Positions 3,953 to 54,305 of a stretch of 64,000 nucleotides of DNA are shown piece after piece. Both the position numbers and the translations under genes were made by a program. Under the pieces are notes generated by a model. That model had not been told where the DNA came from, ran no database searches, and saw only the letters and a program-made list of their open reading frames with translations. This DNA is from Patescibacteria group bacterium (lineage in GTDB: Bacteria; Patescibacteriota; Minisyncoccia; 2-02-FULL-40-12; GWA2-44-9): the NCBI GenBank assembly GCA_038064515.1, contig JBBTSY010000009.1, forward strand, positions 2,155 to 66,154, given 5' to 3'. The first letter of the stretch is position 1, and each line of letters starts with the position of its first letter.

Positions 3953-4351
3953 ATGACTATCAAACCTAACTTCATTATTCTCTGTGATCAGGCGTTCCTG
4001 ACCGCGGGAACAAATAACCTCAATCTGATTGGGATCTTTACGACTATTCATGCGGAGCAATTTCCATTTACCTACCGCAGATTCGCGTTGGTTATCAATT
4101 TTGATTCCGATAGCCTGGGGATGCACGCGTTAGAAACCCGTATTGTTGATGAGAACGATAAAGAACTTATCAAGAGCGAGCTGAAAATCAATATCAGCTC
4201 CTCGCCATTCCAAGTAATCGCGAATTTTGAGAACTTTACATTCTCTATTCCCGGGAAATACGAGATAAAGATCTCTCTCGAAGGAAAAGGAATTGGATCT
4301 CGCGTACTAATCGTAAATCCAGTCGTTAAGCAGACAACACATATCGCCTAA
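3953..4351 (+). CDS. hypothetical protein, beta-rich, no recognisable motif
   Basis: 132-aa ORF tightly packed between alaS and dus. Confidence 0.45.
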   Translation: MTIKPNFIILCDQAFLTAGTNNLNLIGIFTTIHAEQFPFTYRRFALVINFDSDSLGMHALETRIVDENDKELIKSELKINISSSPFQVIANFENFTFSIPGKYEIKISLEGKGIGSRVLIVNPVVKQTTHIA

Positions 4352-8900: not shown

Positions 8901-9056
8901 CGAGAGGCATTTAGTATTGATCCTAAGGAAGTAAGTGATCTTGAAGAGCAGGTCATGGCAGTGGCAGGTGAGATTATGAATCTTGATTTCTGGGAAAAGG
9001 GCTGTAAAGAAAAAGATTGCGAGTACTGCAAGCTGCGTAAATTACTGAATTCATAA
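5958..9056 (+). CDS. UvrD/PcrA-type SF1 helicase fused to a C-terminal RecB/Cas4-like PD-(D/E)xK nuclease with a Cys cluster (AddA-like)
   Basis: Walker A GPGTGKT, DExQD (VDEHQDTN), LTRAK. Nuclease motifs SVTALNNYLECPWRY, GTIDRLE, VIDYKTGK, QLVFYNLL. Terminal CKEKDCEYC cluster. Confidence 0.85.
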   Translation: MKSKRKTPTPKLFQEYYKQLNPEQKNAVDAIEGPIMVIAGPGTGKTQILTLRIANILQQTDTPPEAVLALTFTESGVVSMRKRLAEIIGSAAYRVVITTFHGFCNDIIRSYPEEFPHIIGSESITEIEQIEIMQQVIDTASIKELRPFGDRFYYLKPAIQAINTLKQEGISPERFRTLIDAEEKAFSAIDDLYYEKGAYKGKMKGTYQDQLKHLKRNAELATLYAAYQKSLRDNKLYDYSDMIMEVVAMLERDPELLLTLQEKYLYFLVDEHQDTNNSQNRILELIASYHDNPNLFVVGDEKQAIFRFQGASLENFHYFKNLYKGAQIIDLQHNYRSTQTILDVAVSLMNPVRSLARARGASLKDLGEATSNGMKRGELKAHSTYSEQKIALYEFTTPDVEQYFLAKSIADKIASGTKPEEIAILYRDNADAMPIALMLEKVGISFAIESDQNLLRDEDVQKLLYILRAVKTFGEPGALLKMLHVDFLKIEPLDIYKVAEYSRAQRMNPYDVIKSDKELKATKVGDVKSLIDLYTKLSSWKIASANKGAAETFETIVRDSGFLNYILSLPDAFEKIEKVRTLFDQIKGLIQTHRDYTLDQFLSYLDMLQEHEVLVKNKLITRNSGNVRLMTAHRSKGLEFEYVYLTNMYDGHWGNRRRIGHFKIPKSAFALSSASLINETLDNEDERNLLYVALTRAKKEVALCYARQGYNGREQIPSQFMQEIDQDLIIEGDSQMYEKAFLKEKEILFAQPAITKPGVKDKEFLNQLFRKYGLSVTALNNYLECPWRYFYINLLRIPEAPNKHLAYGNAVHSALREFFDCWVQGDDKGSEFLIKRFKESLSHQPITQGDYSEALAKGEQALAGYYTNYHSTWNKNIRNEFKIDGIELTPDVRLNGTIDRLEILDSAGLPAQAGKVNVIDYKTGKPLSRNQIEGATATSDGNYKRQLVFYNLLLNRFDDGKYRFQQGIIDFIEPDIRGSFRREAFSIDPKEVSDLEEQVMAVAGEIMNLDFWEKGCKEKDCEYCKLRKLLNS

Positions 9057-13639: not shown

Positions 13640-14404
13640 ATGATCCAGCTACCAGAAGATGTAAAAATAGTTTCCCGGGAAGGCAATAAGGCTGTTTTTG
13701 AAATTTCTCCTCTCCTGCCCGGCTACGGAGCAACGATCGCGAACCCATTGCGGCGTGTTTTATTTGCCTCGCTCGAAGGCGCTGCCGTAACGTCCGTTAA
13801 GATTCAGGGCATTGATCACGAATTCTCCAGCATACCCGGCGTGCTTGAAGATGTCATCGAAATCATCCTTAACATTAAAAAGTGTCGCTTTAAGCTTCAC
13901 ACAGAAGGTCCCATTACGGTTACATTGAATGTAAAAGGCGAAAGAGAGGTTACTGCCGGCGATATCAAGCTTAGCGCTGATGTTGAGATTATTAATCAGG
14001 ATCAGCACATTATTACGATCACTGATAAAAAGACCGAAATAAGCATGGAGCTCACAATCGAAAAGGGTATCGGTTATGTGCCGGTAGAACAAAAGCAGAA
14101 AGAAAAGCTTCCCATCGGTGTTATCGCTATCGATGCTATCTTTTCTCCTGTCCGCTTGGTTAACTTCAGAGTTGAAGATATCCGTGTCGGCCAGAGAATC
14201 GATTTTAATAAAGTAACGATGGAAATCGAAACCGACGGCTCAATTTCTCCAGAGCAGGCTTTTAAGAATGCCGCCGAGATTCTTGTAAATCACTTTAATG
14301 TGCTTTTACAGGTTGAGGTCAAGGAGCTGGAGAAGCCGACCAAACCTGCCCGCCTGCCCGGCCAAGGGCCAGGGAAAGTGAAAAAAGTGAAAAACGAAAA
14401 GTAA
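13640..14404 (+). CDS. rpoA: DNA-directed RNA polymerase alpha subunit, N-terminal domain only (no alpha-CTD)
   Basis: RpoA NTD homology. 254 aa, ending in a Lys/Pro-rich tail, against ~330 aa for canonical RpoA. Confidence 0.85.
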   Translation: MIQLPEDVKIVSREGNKAVFEISPLLPGYGATIANPLRRVLFASLEGAAVTSVKIQGIDHEFSSIPGVLEDVIEIILNIKKCRFKLHTEGPITVTLNVKGEREVTAGDIKLSADVEIINQDQHIITITDKKTEISMELTIEKGIGYVPVEQKQKEKLPIGVIAIDAIFSPVRLVNFRVEDIRVGQRIDFNKVTMEIETDGSISPEQAFKNAAEILVNHFNVLLQVEVKELEKPTKPARLPGQGPGKVKKVKNEK

Positions 14405-31079: not shown

Positions 31080-31817
31080 TTATAAGAATCTTTTCAACCA
31101 GAAATCGTGTTCCCATTCCCAGAGAGATTTAGCCGCAAAAAAAGCTTTGATATTTGAATCATATCCAGCAAGCTCTTTAAATTCATATTCTCCTTTAATT
31201 GGCGCCCAGTTATGCTCGCAAGGGTAGCGATCATTTTTGATTTTTACGTTGCCACCCTTTTGACGCATCGTAGCTTTGCAACGAATGCATTTTTGATTCT
31301 GATCCAGACGCAGAACCCAAGAGGTGAGGGGAGGCATATTCGAATCTTCGCTTAATGCTTGCATGTACGCCGCAGTCTGTATGCCGTAATCGCGATATAT
31401 TGCTTGGGATGTCTTGATATCTAATACGCCAACCACGCCGTTTACCTCGGCAAGAATATCAATCGTGCCCGCATAACGATGTTTTCGGCTGATAATCCGT
31501 TCTTCGATTTTCAGCGGTATAACAAGATTACTCCCGTAGAAATCTAAAAACGCATCAATGCTCGGCTGGATTGCCAATGGAATATCAATTGGTTCCTTCT
31601 TTAGTATCGCCTCTACGGCATTATGAACGGCCGAACCTTCTTCGGCGGAGCGGTTCAGGATGGCTTCGCCAGCCTTAAAATTAGGCATACCGGCATAATA
31701 TGCATAGAGCGCAGGCTTTGATTTTATAGAGAGGATCGAAGTGACGCGGGGAAACCATTCTCCTTCGATATCATAACCGTTTTCATTTCGAAATTCTTTA
31801 GCAGTGCGATAGAACAT
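31080..31817 (-). CDS. PD-(D/E)xK RecB-family nuclease with a C-terminal zinc ribbon
   Basis: Motifs WFPRVTSIL, GTIDILAE, LDIKTS, QTAAYMQAL (QxxxY), plus CxxC...C..H. Confidence 0.6.
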   Translation of the reverse strand: MFYRTAKEFRNENGYDIEGEWFPRVTSILSIKSKPALYAYYAGMPNFKAGEAILNRSAEEGSAVHNAVEAILKKEPIDIPLAIQPSIDAFLDFYGSNLVIPLKIEERIISRKHRYAGTIDILAEVNGVVGVLDIKTSQAIYRDYGIQTAAYMQALSEDSNMPPLTSWVLRLDQNQKCIRCKATMRQKGGNVKIKNDRYPCEHNWAPIKGEYEFKELAGYDSNIKAFFAAKSLWEWEHDFWLKRFL

Positions 31818-31826
31818 TAAAGGCGG

Positions 31827-32498
31827 TTATTTAATATTAATGTATTTATTCCAGGCTTCGTAGAGTTTTTTGGTGGCGACCAGATCGCCAAAACAATATG
31901 TGGCAATCTTGAGATATTCCTTGTCATTAAAGAGCTGGGCCACTTCGTTGCCACTGATACCGTCAGATTTAGGGCTTTTAATGCCGAAGGCTTGGCACCA
32001 CATATGAAGGCTCATAGTTCGCCGCACAGCGCCGAAAAAGCCCAACCGATCATAGAGGTCAATATGTTCGTCGCCATATCGATAAGGCATGAGATTTTTA
32101 GTTGGCTTCACTTTCAGAATAGCTGAACGAACCATAATATACGGACAATCAAACGAGCGGCCGTTGAAGGTAACGAACTGATCGTAGTGCTGGATGATTT
32201 CCCAAAATTTTTCCAAAATTTCCTTCTCGGTAACCGGAAAATACTGGACTCCTTCCTCTTCAGATTGTTCTAGGTTTGCTTCGGGCGCTTGAAAATAAAC
32301 CGCACCCTTATCAGTGTCAGGATTTAAAATGCCAATCGCCACAATTTGGCCCGTAAGAGGGGAGAAGCTTAAATTGTTTTTTACTTCTTCGGCTTCCTCC
32401 GGACTGCGCGCGTTCTTTACGAGATACTCCTGCGAGATTTCATCAAGAGCATTAAAATCAACGCCCACGGTTTCAATATCAAAAATGAGTCGAGGCAT
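31827..32498 (-). CDS. 3'-5' exonuclease related to the PolB exonuclease domain (COG3298 / RNase H-like)
   Basis: Exo I FDIETVG, Exo III YCFGDLVAT. Confidence 0.65.
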   Translation of the reverse strand: MPRLIFDIETVGVDFNALDEISQEYLVKNARSPEEAEEVKNNLSFSPLTGQIVAIGILNPDTDKGAVYFQAPEANLEQSEEEGVQYFPVTEKEILEKFWEIIQHYDQFVTFNGRSFDCPYIMVRSAILKVKPTKNLMPYRYGDEHIDLYDRLGFFGAVRRTMSLHMWCQAFGIKSPKSDGISGNEVAQLFNDKEYLKIATYCFGDLVATKKLYEAWNKYINIK

Positions 32499-35380: not shown

Positions 35381-35524
35381 CCTCACACTCACTGACGAGA
35401 TATGGCTCGCTCCGCACAGCGTAGTGCTAGGGAGAAGCTTTTTCATATTCGACAGATAATTACTGCCATACTCAATATCATCGCCATTTCTAGGAACAAC
35501 TCGTCTGTGAGTGTGAGGATTCAT
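35376..35524 (-). repeat. TIR-140 intergenic element, copy 3, reverse orientation, abutting the M23 peptidase start and overlapping the gltX stop
   Basis: Read on the minus strand: ATGAA-[TCCTCACACTCACAGACGAG ... CTCGTCAGTGAGTGTGAGG]-ATGAA. Confidence 0.7.
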
Positions 35525-36876
35525 GAAAGTTTATTGATTGCTGACCGTACGCGCGAAAGCACTTCTTCTTTATCTAACGCTGATATAATATCGACTGGAT
35601 CGGGCGACATTTTCTCTCCCGTCAGCGCAACACGAAGCGGCCAATACACCAGTCCCCTATTTCCTGCCTGGCCGGCTGAAAGTTTGTCCAATTCTTTACG
35701 CAATTCATCTTTGTTGTTTAATTCCAATTTTTCCAAAAGCGCGTGCGATGCTTCTAAAGATTTTTTAACGTCCTCGCGGGAAGAACTTTTCCATATCAAT
35801 AATTCTGCCTCGTACGAAGGCGCTTCCCAGAAATAGTGAAATGCATCCATATCGGTCAGTTTCTCAAGCCGTTCGGTCATGAGCGGGATTGCGGCTTTCA
35901 AAACGTTGTGTCCGATGAGCTTTTCGAAATCCGAGGGCGCAAGCTGGCGCACATACTGCGCATTAATCCAGTTCAGCTTCTGTATATTAAATATCGCTCC
36001 GCTCTTATGCACTTTTGCTAATTCAAATTCTTTTGCCATCTCTTCTTTGCTTAAAATATCCTTGCTGTACGTGTGGCCTAAAAAACCCATGAAGTTCACC
36101 AGTGCTTCGGGCAGATAATCTTTAGCGTAGTCCATAATATCAAGCGCGCCGTGGCGCTTTGAGAGTTTTGATTTGTCCGAACCTAAAATTAATGGCAGAT
36201 GTGCAAAGATGGGAGGCGTTTTTCCGAGTGCTTGATAAATAAGCATCTGCTTTGGCGTATTAGAAATATGATCTTCGCCCCGAATGACATGCGTTATCGC
36301 CATATCGATATCATCAATGACAACGGCAAAATTATATAGTGGAGTTTGTAAATCCTTAGCGAGACTCACATCGCTTATTACGCGCTGATTAAATTCAATC
36401 GTTCCTCGAATCGCATCATCAAAAGAAAGCTTCTTCTCCTCGGTCTGATCAACGACCAGCCGGATAATCTCGCCTGTTTCTTTCCCCTTCTCGCTGTTCT
36501 TGTGGTCGCACAGGTGGCGAGGCGCTTCTTTGCGCTCCATTTGGCCTTTCTTCTCCGCATCAAGCTCCTTGACCGTATGGTGGCACCAAAACGCCTTCCC
36601 GGATGCGAGAAGCTCTTTCAAATACTGCGTATACACAGTAAGACGCTGTGATTGACGAACAATTTCACCATCCCACTGAATGCCCAGCCATCGCAGGCTA
36701 TTAATAATGCTCTCTTCGTATTTTTTGTCAGAGCGTTCCAGGTCAGTGTCTTCAATCCGCAGGATGAGCTGACCGCCGTGCTTCTTGGCAAAAAGCCAAT
36801 TAAAAAGCGCCGTTCGTGCGTTACCAAAGTGTAAATTACCCGTAGGCGACGGTGCTATGCGAACTTTTACTGGCAT
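35521..36876 (-). CDS. gltX: glutamyl-tRNA synthetase
   Basis: HIGH (PSPTGNLHFGNARTAL) and KMSKS (KLSKRHG) motifs. Confidence 0.9.
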   Translation of the reverse strand: MPVKVRIAPSPTGNLHFGNARTALFNWLFAKKHGGQLILRIEDTDLERSDKKYEESIINSLRWLGIQWDGEIVRQSQRLTVYTQYLKELLASGKAFWCHHTVKELDAEKKGQMERKEAPRHLCDHKNSEKGKETGEIIRLVVDQTEEKKLSFDDAIRGTIEFNQRVISDVSLAKDLQTPLYNFAVVIDDIDMAITHVIRGEDHISNTPKQMLIYQALGKTPPIFAHLPLILGSDKSKLSKRHGALDIMDYAKDYLPEALVNFMGFLGHTYSKDILSKEEMAKEFELAKVHKSGAIFNIQKLNWINAQYVRQLAPSDFEKLIGHNVLKAAIPLMTERLEKLTDMDAFHYFWEAPSYEAELLIWKSSSREDVKKSLEASHALLEKLELNNKDELRKELDKLSAGQAGNRGLVYWPLRVALTGEKMSPDPVDIISALDKEEVLSRVRSAINKLS

Positions 36877-36954: not shown

Positions 36955-37012
36955 TTAATCCGATAGTCGCAGCTCTTGTTGAGAAGAGGGCGACAGAAAT
37001 GAGGGTGAAGAG

Positions 37013-37351
37013 ATGAGTGAGATGACGAAGTTGCAGCAGGCGGCGAAGGCGGCGTTCATTAAGGAGATCGGTAAGCGGATCAAGTGGCTCGCGGAGGACT
37101 GCTGGCCGGAAAACCTTGAGTACAGTATCTCAAGGCTCAACCAGATCGTGGAAGCAGCGCGATCCTTCGAGGTCACCGCGCTTGAGTCGCTGACCGACGC
37201 CGAAACGACAGAGTTGATGGGGATCATCAGGCCCATGCGAGCACTGGAGATGAAGGTGGAGACCCGCGAGACCATCATCTCCCTGCTCGAGCGGAAGGGG
37301 CTGGAGAAGGAGGTCTTCCACCCGGTCATCGTCGACGAAACCCCCGCCTAG
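37013..37351 (+). CDS. hypothetical protein; high-GC islet E
   Basis: 112-aa ORF, about 60% GC, GAGGGTGAAGAG SD, terminator at ~37377-37428. Confidence 0.5.
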   Translation: MSEMTKLQQAAKAAFIKEIGKRIKWLAEDCWPENLEYSISRLNQIVEAARSFEVTALESLTDAETTELMGIIRPMRALEMKVETRETIISLLERKGLEKEVFHPVIVDETPA

Positions 37352-37599: not shown

Positions 37600-39528
37600 A
37601 TGTTTATAATCGAAGTCATTCCCCTCATCACCTTTCCGCCCCAGGTATCTCAAATCTTGAGCTATTTTTATGATCAGGCGCTCCCGAAAGGGGCCGTAGT
37701 TAAAGTTCAAATTCAAAAGAAAGAAGTCCAAGCAATAGTAGTCTTATCAACACCGCTCGAGCGCCAAAAAATAACGCTTAAAAAGTCTGCTTTTCAACTT
37801 AAGAAAATTTCTAAGGTTCTCGCTGATGAATCACAGGTAGGCTCTCATCAGTTTCAAACCGCCTTATGGCTTGCTAAACATTATTACGCTCCGCTGGGTC
37901 TATCTCTCAAGTCAGTGCTTCCACCATTTTTTAATAAGCGCGGCTATCAAACAACGCATGAATTAGTCCATGAAGAAATTCCTCCGTCTCGCCTCGCCTC
38001 TCCCCTACCTCTTTTTATCGAAGCTCGCGCCCACCAAACTGCAAGAAAACTCGAACCATTCATTAAAAAAGCCCTTAAAAAAGCAGGCCAAGTTCTTATT
38101 CTCTCACCCGACACCACAATGCTTAATTATCTTTTTGAATCATTTAAGAATCTCGGGGATTCCGCTCGTTTGTCATCCAAAATCTCCAACGCTGATTATT
38201 ATGACATCTGGCGACGAGTCGCGTCGGGTTCTTGCAAGATTATTTGCGCGACCCGTATCGGACTTTTTCTCCCCTTTCATGATTTGCGGATAATCATGGT
38301 GGAAGACCCCTTCCATGAATCTTATAAATCAGAGATGTCGCCGCGCTACAATACTTCCGATGTCGCGCTGAAAATCGCCGACTTCCACGGCGCGCGAACA
38401 ATCTTTATTGCTCCGATTCCCGATCTCAATATCGCATATGCTATTGATCAGCGGACCTTTACTTTACATCAAGAACGCCAAGTCTCACTCCCTGATACGG
38501 ACGTTGTTGATATCGAATATGAACGAAAAACCGGAAACTATTCGGTGTTCAGCCGCCTACTCCAGAAGCGCCTTATTGACGCCATTCGAGTTAAAGAACG
38601 TATTCTTCTCGTCTCGTCTCGGCGAGCTTATTCAGGAATTTTGATCTGTCATAATTGCGGGACCTTCGTAAAGTGCCCCAATTGCGAGATACCGATGCGC
38701 GTCCATAAAACCGCGGAATCAATGCTAGTATGCTACCACTGTTCAGCATACCAAAACTTTCCCAAAAACTGTGTTAATTGTCACAGCACTAAGCTTTCCC
38801 CTGCTGGTGTTGCTGGCAGTCAAAAAATCCAAGAACAATTGACTAAATTTTTAAGCGAACAAAAAATTGAAGACGTAGAATCGTTTATTTTGGATTCCGA
38901 CCTCACTCAAGATGATTCCCAAGAGCAAGAACTATTTGACGCAATAAAAAAATCAACCCAGCCGATCATTATCGCCACGCAGATGATCTTTAGCCATCGC
39001 TATCAGGAGCAATTTGATTTTATCGGCATCATTAATGCCGATGCGCTCATGAGTAATGCTGACTTTCGCGCTGAAGAGAGATTTTTTTACCAGTATGAGA
39101 AGCTTCTCGACTTTCAACCAGCGCGAATCACAATTCAGACATATAATCCGGAAAATTCCGCGATTATGATGGCCGCGCAGGAAAATTACAAGGCATTCTA
39201 CGAACGAGAACTGTCGAACCGAAAACTGCTTGGTTACCCCCCATTCTCCCGTCTTATAAAACTTACCTATGCGCATACTAGCGCAACTAAGGCATCTTTT
39301 GAGGCACGCGCTTTAAATGAAAAATTACGAATGGCTATTGCCCAGTTTAATTTCGGAGAAAGAATAAAAATCTTCGGCCCAAATCCCGCTTCGATAGCTC
39401 GAGAAAAGAACCAATACCACTATTCCATCATTTTAAAAATTGACCCTGAATTTCAGCCGCTTGCCAGCCTCCTTCGCTTTGTTCCTGCGCAATGGCATAT
39501 TGATGTTGATCCTCACCAAATACTGTGA
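37600..39528 (+). CDS. priA: primosomal protein N' (PriA) homolog with a degenerate ATPase (Walker A and DExH lost)
   Basis: PriA N-terminal 3'BD-like region, Cys4-Cys4 zinc region (CHNCG...CPNCE...CYHCS...CVNCHS) and C-terminal domain. Positions aligning to GVTGSGKT and DEEH read EARAHQTA and VEDPFHE. Confidence 0.75.
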   Translation: MFIIEVIPLITFPPQVSQILSYFYDQALPKGAVVKVQIQKKEVQAIVVLSTPLERQKITLKKSAFQLKKISKVLADESQVGSHQFQTALWLAKHYYAPLGLSLKSVLPPFFNKRGYQTTHELVHEEIPPSRLASPLPLFIEARAHQTARKLEPFIKKALKKAGQVLILSPDTTMLNYLFESFKNLGDSARLSSKISNADYYDIWRRVASGSCKIICATRIGLFLPFHDLRIIMVEDPFHESYKSEMSPRYNTSDVALKIADFHGARTIFIAPIPDLNIAYAIDQRTFTLHQERQVSLPDTDVVDIEYERKTGNYSVFSRLLQKRLIDAIRVKERILLVSSRRAYSGILICHNCGTFVKCPNCEIPMRVHKTAESMLVCYHCSAYQNFPKNCVNCHSTKLSPAGVAGSQKIQEQLTKFLSEQKIEDVESFILDSDLTQDDSQEQELFDAIKKSTQPIIIATQMIFSHRYQEQFDFIGIINADALMSNADFRAEERFFYQYEKLLDFQPARITIQTYNPENSAIMMAAQENYKAFYERELSNRKLLGYPPFSRLIKLTYAHTSATKASFEARALNEKLRMAIAQFNFGERIKIFGPNPASIAREKNQYHYSIILKIDPEFQPLASLLRFVPAQWHIDVDPHQIL

Positions 39529-39672: not shown

Positions 39673-40134
39673 ATGCCTATTCTGCCTCTTATCACGGTCC
39701 CGGCAGCCATTCTGCGGAAAAAACAAAAACCTCTTAGTCCAGTAGAGCTTTTAAGCGAACGCGTCCAGCAGCTTATCGAGGACATGCACAAAATCATGAT
39801 CGAAGCTAACGGTGTCGGCCTTGCCGCCAATCAGATCAATCAAGACCTTCAGCTATTTGTGATTAACAAAAAACTTGCTGAAGAAAATAAAGTCCCTGAT
39901 GCGTTTATTAATCCGGAGATCACCGAATATTCTCATGAAACTGATGAGATGGAAGAAGGCTGCCTTTCCATTCCCGCCTTCTACGTACCTATTCGTCGGG
40001 CAAAAAAAATAAAAATCAAGGCGCTAGATCAGCAAGGCAATAAGATTAAATTTAAGGTTCGCGGTTTTCTTGCCCGCGTTCTCCAACACGAGACTGATCA
40101 TATCAATGGTTTAGTCATTAAAGATCGAGTATAA
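39673..40134 (+). CDS. def: peptide deformylase
   Basis: GVGLAANQI, EGCLSIP, QHETDH motifs. Confidence 0.9.
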   Translation: MPILPLITVPAAILRKKQKPLSPVELLSERVQQLIEDMHKIMIEANGVGLAANQINQDLQLFVINKKLAEENKVPDAFINPEITEYSHETDEMEEGCLSIPAFYVPIRRAKKIKIKALDQQGNKIKFKVRGFLARVLQHETDHINGLVIKDRV

Positions 40135-40135
40135 T

Positions 40136-41074
40136 ATGCATAAGGATGTAGAATGTATTTTCTTCGGTACTCCTGCTTTTGCCGTACCATCCCTCAAAGC
40201 TCTCCATGAAGCTGGCTACGCGATCTCGGCCGTGGTTACTACTCCCGATCAGCCGGTAGGTCGAAAAGGGATTCTCGTTCCTTCTCCCGTAAAACAGGCG
40301 GCGCTAGAGTTGAATTTTCCCATACTTGAGCCGGATAAGCTTGATGATTCTTTTTTTGAAACATTCACTAATCTCCAATTTGATATTTGCATCATCGTTG
40401 CTTATGGGAAAATTATTCCAGCAAAATATCTTGTGATTCCCCGTTACGGCTTCGTCAATATTCATGCGTCACTTTTGCCAAAATATCGAGGTCCCTCCCC
40501 TATTCAAACCGCCATTTTCAACGGCGAAAAACAAACTGGCATCAGCCTCCAATTAATAGATGATCAAATTGATCACGGACCAATTATTGCTCAACAGATA
40601 TGTGAACTGCCCGGTCAGCAATACTACCCGGAGATCGCAAGAGTATTATCAAAAGAAAGCGCGCAGTTTCTTATAAGCGCGCTTCCTGATTATTTCAACG
40701 GTAAGTCCAAGCCGCGAGAACAAGATCATTCCCAAGCCACTTTTTGCCACCGACTTTCTCGGGAAGATGGGAAGATCGTTTGGTCGCGTTCGGCTGAAGA
40801 AATTTTCAATCAAATCCGCGCACTTAGTCATGAACCGGGAACGTGGACGACTTGGCAGAATAAAATACTGCGAATCAGTAAAGCAAAAGTTGCGTCAACC
40901 ATGTCATTTCCCGGAGCTCCAGGAACAATAATAAAATCTGGACCACTTATAGCCGTTCAGACCGCGACGCATCCCCTTATTTTACTTCGTATTCAGCTGG
41001 AGGGAGGAAAGGAAATGGATATTACTCAATTTATTTTCGGAAAACATAATTTTATTGGCTCTACGTTCGAATAG
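40136..41074 (+). CDS. fmt: methionyl-tRNA formyltransferase
   Basis: NIHASLLPKYRGPSPIQ and N-terminal formyltransferase fold. Adjacent to def. Confidence 0.9.
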   Translation: MHKDVECIFFGTPAFAVPSLKALHEAGYAISAVVTTPDQPVGRKGILVPSPVKQAALELNFPILEPDKLDDSFFETFTNLQFDICIIVAYGKIIPAKYLVIPRYGFVNIHASLLPKYRGPSPIQTAIFNGEKQTGISLQLIDDQIDHGPIIAQQICELPGQQYYPEIARVLSKESAQFLISALPDYFNGKSKPREQDHSQATFCHRLSREDGKIVWSRSAEEIFNQIRALSHEPGTWTTWQNKILRISKAKVASTMSFPGAPGTIIKSGPLIAVQTATHPLILLRIQLEGGKEMDITQFIFGKHNFIGSTFE

Positions 41075-44450: not shown

Positions 44451-45275
44451 CTATTTAAGTCGAAGTGTGATGATTAAATCGCCAGCGGGCTTGCCTTCGC
44501 GGCCAGCGTTACCGCCTTTAGGAATGGCGATGGTATAGCCGTCCGCTAAATCTTTTGGCAGATGGAGTTCAAGCTTGCGTTTGCCCGGAATGCGTGTTTC
44601 ACCATTGCATTTATCGCAGATTTTTTCCGGAAGTTTTCGCTTGCCGGCACAAGTCGCGCAAATACCGACTCGAGTAAACGAACCAAATGGTGTTCGTGTT
44701 TGCTGACGGACCTGACCGGTACCGCCGCATGTTTTACAATCAATCATCTTGGCACCTTTTGCCAATCCGGTTGCCTTACACTCGTCACAAGTTTTCTGCG
44801 CTTCAAATTCAAAGATACGGCGCTGATCGAGATCTTTTTTATTGATCGTTACTTCTAGATAAATATCCTCGCCTTTTACGGAATCCGGCTGGGTATGGCG
44901 AGCGCCGCCAAAGGCATCAGAAAATACATCAAAAAAATCTTCGATGCCGCCCGATTGTTGATAACCGCCGCGGCTACCGCCAAAGATATCCCAAAAATTA
45001 CTAAAATCATAACCGCCTTGTTTGCCATGAGTTTCGCCGTAAGGCTCCCCTTGAAAGCCGCCGTCATTGTATGCAAAGCCGAAATTATCAAAATTTGATC
45101 GTTTCTTGGGATCGGAAAGCACTTGATATGCTTCGTTCAATTCTTTGAATTTAGCTTCATCGCCGCCAGACTTATCTGGATGGAATCGGTGCGCCAGCTT
45201 GCGATAAGCTTTTTTGATGTCGTCAGCGGAGGCGCTACGCCCCACGCCAAGAATTATATATGGATCCTTGTTCAT
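44451..45275 (-). CDS. dnaJ: DnaJ-like co-chaperone lacking the C-terminal domains (J domain, G/F region, four CxxCxGxG repeats)
   Basis: J-domain HPD motif (HRFHPDK). Zinc-finger repeats [30 protein letters not shown]. 274 aa. Confidence 0.8.
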
Positions 45276-46063
45276 AGCACTAATTCTTCTGCCTTGACGT
45301 CTTTTTCGACAATGGTTACGAATCCGGTGATTTTCAATACTTCAAATAATCCTCCAGCGATATATCCTGCCACCGGAATAAAAATAAATCCCAGCCCCTG
45401 CAAGACTAAAAATAAACCAAATGCCAAAAGAGGCGGAAAGTATTGCCGATAAGGTTCTGCCGAGCGATTTAATAATTCAGTAGTTTCTTTTATGATCTGA
45501 CTTTCCGCTTGTTCGCGTTGTCGGACTGGAAGCTGGTTTAGCTCGTTTCTTGCGATAAGCCGCGAAGCGCCCTCCACGGCTTTCGTAATTGAAACAGGAA
45601 GCTGGTTCTGGCGCGCGCTCGCCTGCACATCAGGATTGGCGAAATATACGAATGACAGCATAATTAACAGCGGCATAATTACTTTCCGAATGCCGGAGCC
45701 TACGGCAGCTCTAAAATCAATTTTTAAGTGATTGCGAACCGCGTTTGACATACCTTTCATTGCCCAGAAATGGAACAAAAACAGAATCACAAGTGCTAAT
45801 AAATTAAGCTTAGTAATTCCAAACACAAGTAAAAATGTAACACCTACAATCGCGCTTGTTCCAAAACGCCACGCATGAGAACTGAAAAATATCAAGGCTA
45901 TCGCAATAATCGCACTCGTAAACATAAGCACCACCAGCGGAACGAGCCAGGTGCCGTAATCAATCGTAGACCATGTCGGATCAGAAATCCACGGCTTCGC
46001 GACATACCAAAGAAGAAACGACGCGAGCAAGACAACAATGAGAATTGCTATGTGTTTTATCAT
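45272..46063 (-). CDS. hypothetical polytopic membrane protein inside the heat-shock operon
   Basis: Six or more TM helices. Start MIKHIAIL chosen to avoid overlap with the dnaK 3' end. Confidence 0.5.
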
Positions 46064-46079
46064 TAGGTTCAGTATACTC

Positions 46080-48023
46080 TTACTTCTGTTCGTGTGGATT
46101 CTGCTCAATTGTTTCTTCGGTTGGTTTGGCCTCCGACTGTTGGGCATCGGACTGCGCACCAGCGCCGGGTTGCTGGCCGGTTGGCGTTGAATTCGTCGAG
46201 CCATACATGGCTTGGCCTATTTTTTGAATAGCCGTTGAAAGTTCTTCTGAAGCCTTTTTAATATTCTCCGTATTATCACTGTCTTTTACACTTTTGAGCG
46301 CCACGATCTTTTCCTCAATCTGCTTTTTATCATCGGCTAATACCTTTTCACCGGCATCTTTCAGCGACTTTTCCGCCATGTACACAAGAGACTCGGCCAT
46401 ATTTTTGGTATCAATGAGTTCTCTTTTCTTTGCATCCTCTGCGGCAAACTTTTCAGCGTCTGCCATCATGCGCTTCTTTTCATCTTCGGAAAGGCCGGAA
46501 GAACCTTCGATGTGAATGGATTGTTCTTTACCGGTTGCCTTGTCTTTGGCTTTTACATTGAGAATGCCGTTAGCGTCAATGTCGAATGAAACTTCAACCT
46601 GCGGAACGCCGCGAGGCGCGGGCGGAATACCATCAAGAATGAATCGCCCAAGCGTCTTGTTATCCGCGGACATAGGCCGCTCGCCCTGCAAAACATGAAT
46701 TTCCACCGAGGGCTGATTATCAGCGGCGGTAGAAAACGTCTGCGTTTTAGAAACAGGAACGGTCGTATTCTTTTCGATCATTTTGGTCATGACGTTACCA
46801 AGCGTTTCAATACCAAGCGAAAGCGGCGTTACATCCAAGAGCAGGACATCGCGAATATCGCCTTGCATGATACCGCCCTGAATAGCGGCACCGATGGCCA
46901 CAACCTCATCCGGATTGATATCCTTGTGTGGTTCCTTACCGAAGAGATTTTTAACCGCTTCGCTGATGGCTGGCATACGGGTTTGACCGCCAACCAGAAT
47001 CACCTCATTAATATCGTTAATTTTTAATCCAGCTTCCTCGACGGTTTTCTTCGTTAACTCGATGGATTTAGCAATGAAATCACGAACGAGATCTTCCAGC
47101 TTAGCTCGCGTAAATGACATCGAAAAGTGCTTTGGTCCGGAAGCATCCGCAGTTAAAAATGGGATATTAACTTCAGTCTGGGCCGTACTGGATAGTTCAT
47201 GCTTCGCTTTTTCGGCCGCATCTTTTAAACGCTGGATTGCAAGTTGATCCTTTGAAATATCAATTCCCTGCTCCTTTTTAAATTCCTCTAATAAGAAATT
47301 AATAATTCGTTGATCCAGGTCATCGCCGCCAAGATGCGTGTCGCCGCCGGTAGCCTTTACTTCGATTGTATCTTCTGAAACTTCCAGCACTGACACATCA
47401 AATGTGCCGCCGCCGAAATCATAAACGACAATTTTTTCATCTTTTCTGCCAGAGGCAGATCCGCTTTTGGCGGACTTTCCAAAGCCGTACGCTAATGCGG
47501 CGGCGGTAGGCTCGTTAATGACGCGCTTTACTGTAAGTCCGGCAATTTCTCCGGCATCTTTAGTTGCCTTGCGTTGGGCATCATCAAAATAGGCAGGTAC
47601 GGTGATGATTGCTTCGGTAATTTTTTCGCCAAGCTTATCCTCTGCGTCGGTTTTGAGCTTTTGCAAAATCATAGCTGAAACTTCAGCCGGCTTGTACCAT
47701 TTATCGCCGATCTTTGCCTCAACATCGTGCTGTGACCCTTCTTTAATTTCATATGGCAGCAGTTTCTTGTCGCGCTGAACTTCGGCATCTGAAAATCGTC
47801 GGCCGATTAGGCGCTTTATAGAAAAGATCGTATTTTGCGGATTTGTAACGGCCTGCCGCTTGGCCGTGATACCAACGTATCGTTCTCCATTTTTGCCGGC
47901 CGCAACCATCGATGGCGTCGTGCGCATACCCTCTTTATTTTCAAGCATCCGTGGTTGACCGCCCTCAACAATAGCCATCGCTGAATTAGTTGTCCCTAAA
48001 TCGATTCCTAAAATCTTTGACAT
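46080..48023 (-). CDS. dnaK: molecular chaperone DnaK (Hsp70)
   Basis: [16 protein letters not shown] and other Hsp70 signatures over 647 aa. Confidence 0.95.
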
Positions 48024-52329: not shown

Positions 52330-53709
52330 ATGCAGAACGGGACCACCACTATCATGACGCAATTGCCGCCTCAAAATTTAGACGCGGAAAAATCACTATT
52401 AGGCGCTCTCCTCATCGATAAAGAAGCCATCAATAAAGTGATAGATATCCTGGGTGCGGACGACTTCTATAATCGCAATAACCAGGTTATTTTTGATGCC
52501 GTGATGACGCTCTTTGAGAAGCGAGAAAACATCGATATTTTGAGCCTGTCGAATAAACTGCGCGAAATGGGCGCTTTAGAGCAGATCGGCGGCATGAGTT
52601 ATCTCACATCACTCGCCAATTCCGTGCCCACTTCCGCGCACGTTGCTACCTATGCCCGCATCGTTCAGCGCAAGAAAACTCTCCGCAATCTGATTGATAC
52701 TGCGCATCACATCATCAGTCTCGGTTATCGAGAAGAAGATGATATTGAAAACCTTCTCGATGAGGCTGAACAAAGGCTTTTTCAAGTTTCCCAAAAAACT
52801 TACGGCCAGAGCTTCAATCCCCTTGCCACCGGGCTGGAAGCGGCCATGGAACGCATCAGCAATCAAGATAGCGGCGTAATGCGCGGTCACCCCACAAAGC
52901 ACAGGCGTTTAGACGAATTGCTCGGCGGATTCCAAAAATCAGACCTGATCATTCTGGCCGCTCGCCCTTCGGTCGGAAAAACGGCATTCGCCATTGATCT
53001 GGCGTTACGCGCCGCGGAACAGAATATTCCGGTCGGCATGTTCAGTTTAGAAATGTCTATCGATCAAGTCATCGATCGATTCATTTCAACAAAATCAAGT
53101 ACGAGTTTATGGAAACTCCGTACCGGAAAACTTTCACACGACGGAACCGATGATTTTCTTAAGATCACTAATGCCATCAGTGACTTAAAAGAACTCCCCA
53201 TCTTTATTGACGACGCCGCTTCCCTTAATGTACTCCAAATGCGCGCTATGGCTCGTCGTCTGCAAGCTGAACATGGTTTAGGACTCTTAATCGTTGATTA
53301 TCTCCAATTAATGGCCGCTCGTAGAAACTATGATAGTCCCGTGCAACAGGTTACTGAAATCTCCCGCGGATTAAAGGGACTGGCGAAGGAACTGAATATT
53401 CCCGTAATCGCCATTTCCCAACTTTCCCGCGCCGTGGAGCACCGAGGCGACAATGCTAAGCCGAAGTTATCCGATCTTCGGGATTCCGGCTCTATTGAAC
53501 AAGACGCCGATGTGGTTATGTTTATCCATCGCGAGGATAAGGTAAATTTTCAAGCCGCCCAAGATAGCGGAAAACTAAATATGGCTCAACTTCTCATTGC
53601 TAAACATCGTAATGGCCCTACTGGCCAAGTAGATTTCCATATCGATCCTGATTCGCTTAAATTCCTTGAGATTGATAAAACTCACCAGGATATCGACTTT
53701 GCATTCTAA
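52330..53709 (+). CDS. dnaB: replicative DNA helicase DnaB (no intein)
   Basis: Walker A ARPSVGKTAF and the RecA-like C-terminal domain. Confidence 0.9.
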   Translation: MQNGTTTIMTQLPPQNLDAEKSLLGALLIDKEAINKVIDILGADDFYNRNNQVIFDAVMTLFEKRENIDILSLSNKLREMGALEQIGGMSYLTSLANSVPTSAHVATYARIVQRKKTLRNLIDTAHHIISLGYREEDDIENLLDEAEQRLFQVSQKTYGQSFNPLATGLEAAMERISNQDSGVMRGHPTKHRRLDELLGGFQKSDLIILAARPSVGKTAFAIDLALRAAEQNIPVGMFSLEMSIDQVIDRFISTKSSTSLWKLRTGKLSHDGTDDFLKITNAISDLKELPIFIDDAASLNVLQMRAMARRLQAEHGLGLLIVDYLQLMAARRNYDSPVQQVTEISRGLKGLAKELNIPVIAISQLSRAVEHRGDNAKPKLSDLRDSGSIEQDADVVMFIHREDKVNFQAAQDSGKLNMAQLLIAKHRNGPTGQVDFHIDPDSLKFLEIDKTHQDIDFAF

Positions 53710-54305
53710 TGAATCCTCGTTTTAAATATCTCGTCCGTTTATTCCAAAAACTCCCCGGCGTCGGCCAACGGCAGGGTGCGCGTTTTGTTTTATCATTATT
53801 AAATCGTGACGAACAGGAATTGCAAGAGCTTGGAGATGCTATCGCTACGCTCAAACAATCAGTCCGCTTCTGCAAAGAGTGCTTTAACGTAGCCGAGGAC
53901 GAGATCTGTCTTATTTGCGCTAATCCGCGGCGCGATACTTCCAAAATGCTTGTTGTCGAAAAGATAACCGATTTGGACTCTATTGAAAGAACTGGTCTTT
54001 ACCGAGGCCTATATCATGTGTTGGGAGGCAGTATTAACCCCGTGGAGGGTATGACGCCGGAACACCTTAAAATTCGAGAATTAAAAAGTCGCGTCCAGAA
54101 GCTTTCCAAAAATAAGGAAGAGTTCGAGCTTATTCTGGCTACTGGTACCGCCACCTCGGGGGAAACAACCGCACTTTATATTCGGGAACTTTTTCATGAT
54201 CAGCCGATTATACTTACCCGCTTGGGCCGAGGACTCTCGGCCGGTTCAAATCTCGAATATGCTGACGAAATCACATTAAAGCACGCGTTAGAACAAAGAA
54301 AATGA
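53709..54305 (+). CDS. recR: recombination protein RecR
   Basis: HhH, C4 zinc finger (CKECFNVAEDEICLIC) and Toprim. Confidence 0.9.
   Translation: MNPRFKYLVRLFQKLPGVGQRQGARFVLSLLNRDEQELQELGDAIATLKQSVRFCKECFNVAEDEICLICANPRRDTSKMLVVEKITDLDSIERTGLYRGLYHVLGGSINPVEGMTPEHLKIRELKSRVQKLSKNKEEFELILATGTATSGETTALYIRELFHDQPIILTRLGRGLSAGSNLEYADEITLKHALEQRK

What the first reader, a model, noticed from the sequence alone, without database searches (positions are those of the whole stretch)
37600..39528. PriA homolog with Walker A and DExH motifs obliterated
The protein retains the PriA N-terminal DNA-binding region, the double Cys4 zinc-binding insert and the C-terminal domain. The positions aligning to GVTGSGKT read EARAHQTA, and those aligning to VIDEEHD read MVEDPFHE. 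An ATPase-dead PriA could still nucleate primosome or replisome loading but cannot unwind. This suggests a helicase-independent restart pathway, or pseudo-enzyme status, in this lineage.
Basis: partly seen in the sequence, partly recalled or inferred. Interest (0 to 1): 0.55.

Follow-up and report, generated by a model that had tools for sequence, protein, structure and literature searches.

The report
Motor-less PriA restart protein in Patescibacteria
This gene encodes the replication-restart protein PriA, which in a large clade of ultra-small Patescibacteria keeps its fold and DNA-binding parts under strong selection but has lost every ATP-handling motif, so it probably works as a fork-recognising scaffold; one such case was already shown in Deinococcus.

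Summary
ORF 37600-39528 (+, 642 aa) is a PriA orthologue. It passes TIGR00595, has the 3'BD and PriA_C domains and eight invariant CRR cysteines, and sits in the gltX-priA-def-fmt arrangement. The AF2 model (pLDDT 90.6) matches fork-bound E. coli PriA with TM 0.84.

In an ungapped alignment with a canonical PriA, GVTGSGKT reads EARAHQTA and DEEH reads EDPF. Motif III (GSAT to IAPI) and motif Va are also lost, and the motif VI arginine fingers are deleted.

It is neither a frameshift nor a pseudogene:
- The other reading frames carry stops.
- dN/dS against an 88% identical relative is 0.12, similar to gltX, def and fmt.
- All 120 closest homologues lack the motifs, as do 127 of the 150 nearest 50%-identity cluster representatives, all from Patescibacteria/Parcubacteria-labelled MAGs where named.

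DNA-contacting elements (Ia, Ib, the aromatic-rich loop, IV, V, CRR, CTD) stay conserved, while the ATP-contacting motifs drift freely. Other Patescibacteria keep a canonical short PriA, so the loss is clade-specific and probably happened once.

Best reading: an ATP-independent fork-recognition and DnaB-reloading scaffold. This is the same kind of protein as the Deinococcus radiodurans PriA pseudohelicase (Lopper 2015), but more deeply eroded and in a new, much larger lineage. No biochemistry was done, and a second PriA elsewhere in the genome is not excluded.

The parts
37600..39528 (+). priA coding sequence, 642 aa. It is a PriA orthologue without ATPase motifs.
   Evidence: The ORF is listed. 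TIGR00595 scores 296.7 bits against a cutoff of 230.35. PDB PriA structures match at E about 1e-47. The AF2 model has pLDDT 90.6 and matches 8fak_H with TM 0.84. dN/dS is 0.12.
37642..37923 (+). 3' DNA-binding domain (3'BD), residues 15-108.
   Evidence: Pfam PF17764 matches at E 3.8e-10, 39.9 bits against a cutoff of 22.7. Many residues are invariant or nearly so in the clade, including P8, Y22, G31, Y95, L99 and P108.
37924..38004 (+). Short linker, residues 109-135, in place of the winged-helix domain, which is absent.
   Evidence: About 90 E. coli residues (about 110-198) have no counterpart here. This is the low-confidence stretch of the model: pLDDT is 52 for residues 121-130.
38020..38043 (+). 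Remnant of motif I (Walker A): E141-A148, EARAHQTA, aligned to GVTGSGKT.
   Evidence: See (the alignment is ungapped here). This is the least conserved motif position in the clade, at mean 0.31 against 0.94 in canonical PriA.
38302..38316 (+). Remnant of motif II (Walker B / DExH): E235-H239, EDPFH, aligned to DEEHD.
   Evidence: The query's own subclade reads [ED]DPxHE. The wider clade's consensus at DEEH is DDEE, at mean 0.47 against 1.00 in canonical PriA.
38323..38349 (+). Aromatic-rich loop (motif IIa), Y242-Y250, YKSEMSPRY. It is retained.
   Evidence: It aligns to E. coli Y327-Y335, which includes the ARL residues K328-Y335 that crosslink to the fork junction (PMC5175346). Conservation is equal in the degenerate clade (0.68) and the canonical clade (0.71). 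The same pattern, Y[KR]S[DE]M[ST]P[RK]Y, also found canonical Clostridia PriA genes.
38407..38418 (+). Remnant of motif III: I270-I273, IAPI, aligned to GSAT.
   Evidence: Conservation is 0.42 in the clade against 0.93 in canonical PriA.
38647..38781 (+). Cysteine-rich region with four CxxC pairs: C350/353, C359/362, C378/381 and C391/394. These would form two Zn sites.
   Evidence: All eight cysteines are invariant in 74 aligned homologues and at 100% in 139 clade members. This region has the lowest dN/dS in the gene, 0.039.
39100..39120 (+). Remnant of motif VI: K501-P507, KLLDFQP, aligned to QVAGRAGRAGKQG with a 5-residue deletion. The arginine fingers are lost.
   Evidence: Conservation is 0.37 in the clade against 0.92 in canonical PriA.
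39241..39513 (+). PriA C-terminal domain, residues 548-638.
   Evidence: Pfam PF18074 matches at E 4.8e-12, 47 bits against a cutoff of 26.9. The YPPF motif is conserved at 0.93 in both clades.
39673..41074 (+). def (39673-40134) and fmt (40136-41074), downstream on the same strand. They form the conserved priA-def-fmt arrangement.
   Evidence: The ORFs are, and the Pfam identities come from the syntenic locus. Both def and fmt follow priA in 19 of the 24 GTDB-scan Patescibacteria loci with the degenerate priA. Both also follow it in nearly all of the roughly 56 canonical Clostridia/Bacillota loci; a few of those stop at a contig end.
35521..36876 (-). gltX, divergent upstream neighbour. It is a synteny marker within the clade.
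   Evidence: gltX lies upstream of priA in 21 of the 24 GTDB-scan Patescibacteria loci, and also in L082 and L083.
52330..53709 (+). dnaB replicative helicase, the presumed client of PriA-directed reloading. Its Walker A is intact.
   Evidence: Pfam DnaB and DnaB_C match. The Walker A reads ARPSVGKT. The link to PriA is an inference from the known pathway, not shown here.

Best explanation
This is the organism's orthologous PriA replication-restart protein, converted into a pseudohelicase.

It keeps the PriA architecture minus the winged-helix domain: the 3'BD, two RecA-like lobes, the two-zinc cysteine-rich region and the C-terminal domain. The nucleotide-binding cleft between the lobes is dismantled. 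There is no P-loop, no DExH and no motif III, and the motif VI arginine fingers are deleted.

The proposed mechanism has three steps.
1. The 3'BD, the lobes' DNA-contact motifs (Ia, Ib, the aromatic-rich loop, IV, V), the CRR and the CTD recognise an abandoned fork and clamp the lagging-strand template without using ATP.
2. The bound protein serves as a landing platform. It brings the replicative helicase DnaB back to the fork, either directly or through an unidentified adaptor or loader.
3. Because it cannot unwind, it should act only on forks that already have single-stranded lagging-strand template. Otherwise it must rely on another helicase or nuclease to clear that arm.

Shown here: PriA orthology, the fold, the motif loss, clade-wide conservation, purifying selection, and differential conservation of DNA-contacting versus ATP-contacting motifs.

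Inferred: absence of ATPase and helicase activity, fork binding, DnaB reloading and the substrate restriction.

The loss most likely happened once, in the ancestor of a large Parcubacteria-group (Patescibacteria) clade. It was followed by strongly accelerated sequence divergence.
For: Orthology:
- TIGR00595 scores above its cutoff, and the Pfam 3'BD and PriA_C domains are present.
- PriA structures match at E about 1e-47.
- priA-def-fmt synteny is shared with canonical Clostridia PriA loci.
- There is only one PriA-like locus in the window.

Fold:
- The AF2 model has pLDDT 90.6 and pTM 0.88.
- The top PDB matches are all PriA. 8fak_H, the fork-bound form, gives TM 0.84, and the next non-PriA hit has E about 1e-9.

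A functional gene:
- dN/dS is 0.12 for the whole gene and 0.09-0.23 across the RecA-like lobes. The comparators are gltX 0.105, def 0.14 and fmt 0.24.
- Homologues are full-length down to 28% identity.

Clade-wide state:
- 120 of 120 nearest 90%-identity clusters lack the motifs.
- 127 of the 150 nearest 50%-identity cluster representatives lack them.
- All 24 Patescibacteria-type GTDB species loci lack them, while the 19 Clostridia/Bacillota loci examined keep DE[EA]H and GK[ST].
- An NJ tree built without the motif columns puts all 139 motif-less sequences in one clade, with canonical Patescibacteria forms at its base.

Selective retention:
- Ia, Ib, ARL, IV, V, the CRR cysteines and the CTD YPPF motif remain conserved in the degenerate clade (means 0.59-0.93, CRR cysteines 100%).
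- Motifs I, II, III and VI collapse to 0.31-0.47, and Va is deleted.

Precedent:
- E. coli K230R PriA assembles primosomes and behaves almost like wild type.
- D. radiodurans PriA lacks ATPase and helicase activity yet binds forks and DnaB (PMC4504706; PMC5778457).
- In E. coli, PriA must unwind a duplex lagging arm before the CRR can move and PriB can bind, which motivates the predicted substrate restriction (PMC13594977).
Against: - No biochemical or genetic data exist for this protein or for any clade member.
- No primosome partner (DnaD, DnaI, DciA, PriB or DnaT) was found in the 64-kb window. The downstream steps are therefore unknown.
- Whole genomes could not be searched, so a second, canonical PriA or a substitute restart helicase in the same genomes is not excluded.
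- The winged-helix domain contributes to fork binding in E. coli and is missing here.
- The SSB-tail pocket residues could not be mapped.
- The NJ tree is crude: identity-based distances and no support values.
Confidence: 0.8

Rival explanations
1. The gene is decaying or is a pseudogene. PriA function has been lost, and the ORF is a relic on its way out of a reduced genome.
For: All catalytic motifs are gone. The protein has diverged to 25-28% identity from canonical Patescibacteria PriA, while those canonical forms are about 50% identical to Chloroflexota PriA.
Against: - dN/dS is 0.12, as low as for gltX and def, and 0.04 in the CRR.
- More than 130 clusters have intact full-length ORFs.
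- 26 columns are invariant, including all eight zinc-binding cysteines.
- The predicted fold is confident.
- The start codon and N-terminus are conserved.
Confidence: 0.02
2. The motif loss is a sequencing or assembly artefact. The motifs would be present but hidden by a frameshift or displaced in the alignment.
For: There is none beyond the a priori possibility in MAG data.
Against: - The alignment with canonical P0240 is ungapped across motifs I and II.
- The other two reading frames of 37900-38420 are interrupted by stops and contain no GKT or DEEH.
- No [AG]xxxxGK[ST] occurs anywhere in the protein.
- The same state is seen in independent assemblies from ENA, NCBI, JGI and Logan.
Confidence: 0.01
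3. The protein is a non-canonical NTPase. It would still bind or hydrolyse a nucleotide using substitute residues, for example the near-invariant D236, H239 or E240, or the proposed second nucleotide site of PriA.
For: - D236, E240, Y242, K243, S244 and D245 are nearly or fully invariant in the clade.
- The lobes remain under strong constraint.
- The literature mentions a weaker second nucleotide site in E. coli PriA whose location is unknown (PMC5778457).
Against: - The P-loop segment is the most variable part of the core, with no residue above 29% in the clade.
- The motif VI arginines are deleted rather than substituted.
- A single K to R change already abolishes ATPase in E. coli PriA, and D. 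radiodurans PriA, which naturally carries K to R, has no measurable ATPase (PMC4504706).
- The conserved residues next to motif II belong to the DNA-contacting aromatic-rich loop, which canonical Clostridia PriA shares.
Confidence: 0.05
4. The protein is a neofunctionalised PriA-derived factor, not the restart initiator. It could be, for example, a fork-binding protector or regulator, or a partner of a different machine. Restart would then be handled by another protein elsewhere in the genome, such as a second PriA or a RecG-, Rep- or PcrA-type helicase.
For: - Divergence after the motif loss is very fast.
- The winged-helix domain is lost.
- Only 64 kb of the genome is visible.
- An AddA-like helicase-nuclease is present at 5958-9056.
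Against: - The gene occupies the ancestral priA position upstream of def-fmt, exactly as canonical priA does in Clostridia.
- All fork-recognition modules are retained.
- The canonical short form, also without a WH domain, exists in other Patescibacteria, so loss of WH predates the change.
- There is no second PriA in the window.
- Small Patescibacteria genomes rarely keep redundant copies; this last point rests on general knowledge and was not tested.
Confidence: 0.1

Closest known systems
Deinococcus radiodurans (Deinococcus-Thermus) PriA pseudohelicase (Lopper, Boone & Morrow 2015, PMC4504706)
   Same: Both are natural PriA orthologues whose motifs I and II depart from consensus. The Deinococcus protein was shown to lack ATPase and helicase activity while still binding ssDNA, fork DNA and DnaB. 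The functional reading is the same: a restart scaffold without a motor.
   Different: - In Deinococcus-Thermus the erosion is mild: the GKT lysine is replaced by arginine and the Walker boxes match poorly. Here the whole P-loop, DExH, motif III and motif Va are unrecognisable and motif VI is deleted.
- The phylum differs (Patescibacteria, Parcubacteria group), so the loss was presumably independent. This was not tested phylogenetically against Deinococcus sequences.
- The protein here is short (642 aa) and has no winged-helix domain.
- No biochemistry exists for this clade.
E. coli PriA K230R/K230A/K230D (priA300) engineered ATPase-dead variants
   Same: The Walker A lysine is lost. The variants still assemble primosomes in vitro and support near-wild-type growth through the PriA-PriB pathway (PMC5778457). 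This shows that the scaffold role can be separated from the motor role.
   Different: - The E. coli variants carry a single engineered substitution in an otherwise canonical enzyme.
- They depend on PriB and DnaT, which are proteobacterial proteins and were not found here.
- The E. coli mutants fail in the PriA-PriC pathway and in Mu replication. This implies a cost that the Patescibacteria clade must tolerate or bypass.
Canonical PriA (TIGR00595 / PRK05580; structures 4NL4, 6DGD, 8FAK)
   Same: - The domain order matches: 3'BD, helicase lobe 1, lobe 2 with the inserted CRR, then the CTD.
- The model matches 8fak_H with TM 0.84.
- The priA-def-fmt gene order is the same as in Clostridia/Bacillota.
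- The aromatic-rich loop and the eight zinc-binding cysteines are retained.
   Different: There are no ATPase motifs and no winged-helix domain. Identity to E. coli PriA is only about 22%.
Canonical short-form PriA of other Patescibacteria (e.g. ACD_63 P0240, 'Candidatus Torokbacteria' P0213, WS5 P0333)
   Same: The length is similar (650-680 aa), the winged-helix domain is also absent, and the proteins align end to end with the query.
   Different: These proteins keep GVTGSGKT, DEEH, GSAT and GRxGR and are about 50% identical to Chloroflexota PriA. The query clade is only 25-28% identical to them.

Membership tests
PriA (primosomal protein N', TIGR00595 / PRK05580) | The whole-protein match to the curated PriA equivalog model scores above its cutoff. 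| tested here: met
   TIGR00595 scores 296.7 bits against a cutoff of 230.35. The full-length PRK05580 sub-models match strongly but fall below their very high cutoffs.
PriA (primosomal protein N', TIGR00595 / PRK05580) | An N-terminal 3' DNA-binding domain is present. | tested here: met
   PF17764 covers residues 15-108 at 39.9 bits against a cutoff of 22.7.
PriA (primosomal protein N', TIGR00595 / PRK05580) | A winged-helix domain lies between the 3'BD and the helicase core, as in E. coli and K. pneumoniae. | tested here: not met
   About 90 E. coli residues have no counterpart in the query. Canonical short Patescibacteria PriAs also lack this domain, so it is not universal to the family.
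PriA (primosomal protein N', TIGR00595 / PRK05580) | The cysteine-rich region inserted in lobe 2 has eight Zn-binding cysteines. | tested here: met
   The cysteines are C350/353, 359/362, 378/381 and 391/394. They are invariant in 74 aligned homologues and in 139 clade members. Zinc binding itself was not tested.
PriA (primosomal protein N', TIGR00595 / PRK05580) | The PriA C-terminal domain is present. | tested here: met
   PF18074 covers residues 548-638 at 47 bits against a cutoff of 26.9.
PriA (primosomal protein N', TIGR00595 / PRK05580) | The overall three-dimensional architecture is that of PriA. | tested here: met
   The AF2 model has pLDDT 90.6. The nine best Foldseek PDB hits are all PriA, with TM 0.60-0.84. 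This rests on a predicted structure, not a solved one.
PriA (primosomal protein N', TIGR00595 / PRK05580) | The genomic position is that of priA in related bacteria (priA-def-fmt). | tested here: met
   The arrangement holds in the window, in L082 and L083, in 19 of the 24 GTDB-scan Patescibacteria loci, and in nearly all of the roughly 56 Clostridia/Bacillota loci.
Active SF2 DExH-type DNA helicase/ATPase | Motif I (Walker A), GxGK[ST], is present. | tested here: not met
   The aligned position reads EARAHQTA. No [AG]xxxxGK[ST] occurs anywhere in the protein.
Active SF2 DExH-type DNA helicase/ATPase | Motif II (Walker B), DExH, is present. | tested here: not met
   The aligned position reads EDPF.
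Active SF2 DExH-type DNA helicase/ATPase | Motif III (SAT) and the motif VI arginine fingers (QxxGRxGR) are present. | tested here: not met
   GSAT reads IAPI. QVAGRAGR reads KLLDFQP with a deletion, and no arginine is left.
Active SF2 DExH-type DNA helicase/ATPase | The protein shows DNA-stimulated ATP hydrolysis and 3'-5' unwinding. | not testable with these tools
   This needs purified protein.
PriA pseudohelicase (Deinococcus-type functional class) | The protein is a PriA orthologue with degenerate motifs I and II that is conserved across a lineage. | tested here: met
   
PriA pseudohelicase (Deinococcus-type functional class) | The protein has no ATPase or helicase activity but retains ssDNA and fork binding. 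| not testable with these tools
   This is inferred only, from retention of the DNA-contact motifs and of the 3'BD, CRR and CTD.
PriA pseudohelicase (Deinococcus-type functional class) | The protein interacts physically with its cognate DnaB. | not testable with these tools
   A cognate dnaB gene is present at 52330-53709. The interaction was not tested.
PriA pseudohelicase (Deinococcus-type functional class) | The protein shares descent with Deinococcus-Thermus PriA, that is, the same loss event. | not tested
The nearest canonical relatives are Patescibacteria, Chloroflexota and Clostridia PriAs, so an independent loss is likely.

The most novel reading that the evidence does not exclude
A major radiation within the Parcubacteria group of Patescibacteria would run replication restart with a PriA that is purely structural. 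This radiation accounts for at least 127 of the 150 nearest 50%-identity protein clusters.

On this reading:
- The RecA-like lobes have been frozen into an ATP-independent clamp on the lagging-strand template. The clamp may rest in the CRR-rotated, fork-engaged conformation, because the model resembles 8FAK (TM 0.84) more than free PriA (TM 0.69-0.71).
- The protein has co-evolved rapidly with an as yet unidentified DnaB-loading partner.
- Fork recognition and scaffolding, not unwinding, would be the indispensable core of PriA.
- Motor-less restart would be common across a sizeable slice of bacterial diversity rather than a Deinococcus oddity.
Probability: 0.45. Interest if true: 0.6.

Novelty: new member of a known kind. 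Interest (0 to 1): 0.45.

Why it matters
[quoted passage not shown] This locus shows a second, much larger lineage that has lost the motor, and the erosion is far deeper: all ATP-contacting motifs are erased, while the DNA-contacting motifs, zinc sites and fold stay under strong selection. Other Patescibacteria keep a canonical PriA.

This has three consequences.
- It is a natural separation-of-function experiment. It shows which parts of PriA are indispensable and supports the view that fork recognition and helicase reloading, not unwinding, are the protein's core job.
- It offers a clean comparative system. Canonical and motor-less short PriAs exist in related organisms, which helps in asking how restart works without PriB, DnaT or DnaC.
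- It matters for annotation. Pipelines name these proteins 'primosomal protein N'' or 'replication restart helicase PriA', although they almost certainly have no helicase activity.

I found no paper in the held library that reports this for Patescibacteria/CPR.

Tried and rejected
- Frameshift or hidden motifs: I translated all three frames of 37900-38420 and searched the protein for any P-loop. Nothing was found.
- Shifted motifs: I checked three independent alignments, against E. coli PriA, a 120-sequence MSA, and pairwise against the canonical short-form P0240. All gave the same register.
- Pseudogene: rejected by dN/dS and clade-wide conservation.
I repeated it with the 12-sequence alignment A2.
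- Primosome partners in the window: I scanned about 60 ORFs against Pfam. I found DnaB and RecR but no DnaD, DnaI, DciA, PriB or DnaT. This is uninformative, because only 64 kb is visible.
- A second PriA in the window: tblastn with E. coli PriA and two canonical Patescibacteria PriAs found only the one locus.
- Literature: searches for PriA together with Patescibacteria, CPR, degenerate Walker A or Actinobacteria returned nothing on this clade.
- Actinobacterial PriA: from memory, UniProt flags actinobacterial PriA (the PRK14873 type) as lacking detectable helicase domains. I could not verify this here and do not use it as evidence.
'Candidatus Torokbacteria' is not in the taxonomy dump.
- 'Saccharibacteria' labels: several binned assemblies carry this label, but their PriAs lie among Yanofskybacteria sequences in the tree ordering. 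I treat the labels as generic.
- Model conformation: the AF2 model resembles the fork-bound state. I note this but do not treat it as evidence for a conformational ground state.
Full report
**1. The object**

The window carries an ORF at exactly 37600-39528 on the + strand, encoding 642 aa. Its neighbours are a divergent gltX (35521-36876, minus strand) and, downstream on the same strand, def (39673-40134) and fmt (40136-41074). G+C content is about 45% and even across the window. An identical protein (P0001) and two near-identical cluster members are deposited as 'MAG: primosomal protein N' [Patescibacteria group bacterium]' (MEK7582568.1 and MEK7589551.1).

**2. It is PriA**

- Pfam finds PriA_3primeBD at residues 15-108 and PriA_C at residues 548-638, both above cutoff. 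There is a weak Zn_ribbon_PriA hit. The generic DEAD and Helicase_C models fall below their cutoffs.
- The NCBIfam equivalog TIGR00595 (priA) scores 296.7 bits against a cutoff of 230.35.
- phmmer against PDB sequences returns only PriA (4NL4, 6DGD, 6DCR, 8FAK) at E about 1e-47 to 1e-44, aligned over residues 156-615.
- An AlphaFold2 model built on 74 homologues is confident: mean pLDDT 90.6, pTM 0.88. The only weak stretch is residues 121-130.
- In Foldseek against the PDB, the nine best hits are all PriA. The best is fork-bound E. coli PriA, 8fak_H, with TM 0.84. The winged-helix-deletion PriA 6dcr gives 0.71 and free K. pneumoniae PriA 4nl4 gives 0.69. The next family, Mfd, is 30 orders of magnitude worse.

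**3. The motifs are gone, in register**

The same register appears in a MAFFT alignment with E. coli PriA (taken from NC_000913) and 120 homologues. It also appears in a BLASTP alignment with a canonical short-form Patescibacteria PriA, P0240, that has no gap through motifs I and II.

| Motif | Canonical | This protein |
|---|---|---|
| I (Walker A) | GVTGSGKT | E141-A148, EARAHQTA |
| II (DExH) | DEEHD | E235-H239, EDPFH |
| III | GSAT | IAPI |
| Va | KGxxFP | lost |
| VI | QVAGRAGRAGKQG | LLDFQP, with a 5-residue deletion that removes both arginines |

The protein contains no [AG]xxxxGK[ST] anywhere. The two alternative reading frames of 37900-38420 are full of stops and hold no motif. DnaB, an AddA-like helicase and an ABC ATPase in the same window all have normal P-loops.

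The winged-helix domain (E. coli about 110-198) is absent. Canonical 650-680-aa Patescibacteria PriAs lack it as well, so that loss is older than the motif loss.

**4. It is not a dying gene**

- Against the 88% identical orthologue in L082, Nei-Gojobori dN/dS is 0.12 (dS 0.50). The neighbours give 0.105 for gltX, 0.14 for def and 0.24 for fmt.
- By region, dN/dS is 0.09-0.23 in the RecA-like lobes and 0.04 in the cysteine-rich region.
- In 74 aligned homologues with 35-88% identity to the query, 26 columns are invariant. These include all eight CRR cysteines (C350/353, 359/362, 378/381 and 391/394).

**5. The state is clade-wide and selective**

- All 120 nearest 90%-identity clusters (36-100% identity) lack GxGK[ST]. 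The named ones are Candidatus Yanofskybacteria, Candidatus Taylorbacteria and 'Patescibacteria group'.
- An exhaustive phmmer search of 1.84 billion 50%-identity cluster representatives gave 16,270 PriA-like hits. Of the best 150, 117 lack motifs I, II, III and VI together, and 9 more lack I and VI but keep a DExH or SAT remnant. One has only a chance 'GKT', and 23 are canonical.
- In GTDB species representatives, all 24 Patescibacteria-type loci lack GK[ST] and DE[EA]H. These carry Yanofskybacteria, Portnoybacteria, Parcubacteria, Patescibacteria group, unclassified or generic 'Saccharibacteria' labels. The 19 Clostridia/Bacillota loci examined keep both motifs, as read in the alignment.
- NCBI taxonomy places Yanofskybacteria and Portnoybacteria in the Parcubacteria group of the Patescibacteria group.
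- I compared 139 motif-less proteins with 43 canonical ones:

| Element | Canonical | Motif-less clade |
|---|---|---|
| Motif I | 0.94 | 0.31 |
| Motif II | 1.00 | 0.47 |
| Motif III | 0.93 | 0.42 |
| Motif VI | 0.92 | 0.37 |
| Motif Va | 0.79 | deleted |
| Ia (LVPE) | 0.85 | 0.59 |
| Ib (GTRxALF) | 0.82 | 0.74 |
| Aromatic-rich loop (YKSxMxPxY) | 0.71 | 0.68 |
| IV (RRG) | 0.84 | 0.61 |
| V (TQ) | 0.84 | 0.59 |
| CRR cysteines | not computed separately | 100% |
| CTD YPPF | 0.93 | 0.93 |

Values are mean column conservation. The ATP-contacting motifs collapse, while the DNA-contacting and structural elements are kept.

- In E. coli the aromatic-rich loop residues K328-Y335 crosslink to the fork junction (PMC5175346). 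The query keeps K243, R249 and Y250. It has proline at the W333 position, as the consensus of the canonical relatives does.

**6. Orthology and history**

- Both def and fmt follow priA in the window, in L082 and L083, in 19 of the 24 GTDB-scan Patescibacteria loci, and in nearly all of the roughly 56 canonical Clostridia/Bacillota loci. The motif-less gene therefore sits where canonical priA sits.
- The window has no second PriA.
- Canonical short-form PriAs with intact GVTGSGKT, DEEH and GRxGR exist in other Patescibacteria. Examples are ACD_63 P0240, 'Candidatus Torokbacteria' P0213, MAGs labelled 'Parcubacteria group', and WS5. They are about 50% identical to Chloroflexota PriA.
- The query is only 25-28% identical to these canonical short forms. 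This indicates strong rate acceleration after the loss.
- A rough neighbour-joining tree, built with the motif columns removed, puts all 139 motif-less sequences in one clade. A handful of canonical Patescibacteria sequences sit at its base. This fits a single loss, but the tree carries no support values.
- Intermediates that keep DEEx or SAT yet lack motifs I and VI (P0148, P0155, P0157 and P0212) suggest that motifs I and VI went first.

**7. Mechanism**

Established knowledge:
- E. coli PriA K230R (priA300) lacks ATPase, helicase and translocase activity. It still assembles primosomes and behaves almost like wild type through the PriA-PriB pathway. Helicase activity is needed for the PriA-PriC pathway and for Mu replication (PMC5778457).
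- D. radiodurans PriA carries a natural K to R change in its GKT. It has no measurable ATPase or unwinding activity but binds ssDNA, forks and DnaB (PMC4504706).
- In E. coli, fork binding rotates the CRR so that it encircles single-stranded lagging-strand DNA. A duplex lagging arm must first be unwound (PMC10175261 and PMC13594977).

From this I infer that the Patescibacteria protein recognises abandoned forks and clamps the lagging-strand template without ATP. It would then recruit DnaB, which is encoded at 52330-53709, either directly or through an unknown adaptor. It should be limited to forks that already expose ssDNA, unless another enzyme clears the arm.

The motif loss, the fold, the selection and the synteny are shown. 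The lack of ATPase, the fork binding and the DnaB reloading are inferred. No partner protein was found in the window.

**8. Comparison and novelty**

This is the same kind of protein as the Deinococcus PriA pseudohelicase: a natural separation of PriA's scaffold role from its motor role. It differs in four ways:
- It belongs to a different lineage.
- The loss was probably independent.
- The erosion is much deeper, with five motifs erased or deleted rather than a K to R change.
- It has a short, WH-less architecture.

The review literature lists Deinococcus as the only exception to conservation of the PriA helicase. Four searches of the held library found no report for Patescibacteria/CPR. I therefore file it as a new member of a known kind, of moderate interest.

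**9. Limits**

- No biochemistry was done.
- Whole genomes were not searchable, so a second PriA or a substitute helicase cannot be excluded.
- The phylogeny is crude.
- The taxonomic labels of the MAGs are sparse.
- The structural comparison rests on a predicted model.

Noticed in passing
window 5958-9056 (+) and 9390-11432 (+): The first ORF is a 1032-aa UvrD-type helicase with a C-terminal PD-(D/E)XK nuclease. It looks AddA-like and has an intact Walker A, AGPGTGKT. It is followed by a 680-aa ORF with no Pfam hit, which could be a divergent AddB-like partner.
   Followed up: partly
window 52330-53709 (+) and 53709-54305 (+): The replicative helicase gene dnaB abuts recR, with the stop and start sharing a base. 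This is an unusual pairing of a replisome gene with a recombination-mediator gene.
   Followed up: no
window 31827-32498 (-) and 31080-31817 (-); also L082 1495-2913: A PolB-exonuclease-like 3'-5' exonuclease lies next to a weak PD-(D/E)XK nuclease-family protein. The pair is conserved in the closest relative.
   Followed up: no
window 13640-14404 (+) and 2188-3948 (+): RpoA is only 254 aa and has no alpha-CTD Pfam hit. AlaRS is 586 aa and ends right after the tRNA_SAD domain, so it has no C-terminal C-Ala domain. Both are apparently truncated housekeeping proteins.
   Followed up: no
window 45272-46204 (-): A 310-aa ORF with no Pfam hit sits between dnaK and dnaJ in the hrcA-grpE-dnaK-dnaJ cluster and overlaps the 3' end of dnaK. 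A 263-aa counterpart is called at the same place in L082.
   Followed up: no
window 37013-37351 (+): A 112-aa ORF lies directly upstream of priA on the same strand and has no Pfam hit. It is conserved at 72% in L082 but was not detected in L083 or in more distant loci. The 124-aa ORF on the opposite strand (36955-37329) is probably spurious.
   Followed up: partly
P0148, P0155, P0157, P0212 and similar representatives (not in the window): These are intermediate PriA forms. They keep a DEEx or DDEH Walker B and/or the SAT motif III but already lack Walker A and the motif VI arginines. This suggests an ordered decay, with motifs I and VI lost first.
   Followed up: partly
L004, L005, L007, L008, L015, L016, L028 (GTDB representatives): These MAGs are titled 'uncultured Candidatus Saccharibacteria bacterium', but they carry the gltX-priA-def-fmt locus and PriA sequences that lie among Yanofskybacteria sequences in the tree ordering. 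The labels are probably generic or wrong.
   Followed up: partly
window 3953-4351 (+): A 132-aa protein of family DUF6941 (E 1e-23) lies between alaS and dus.
   Followed up: no
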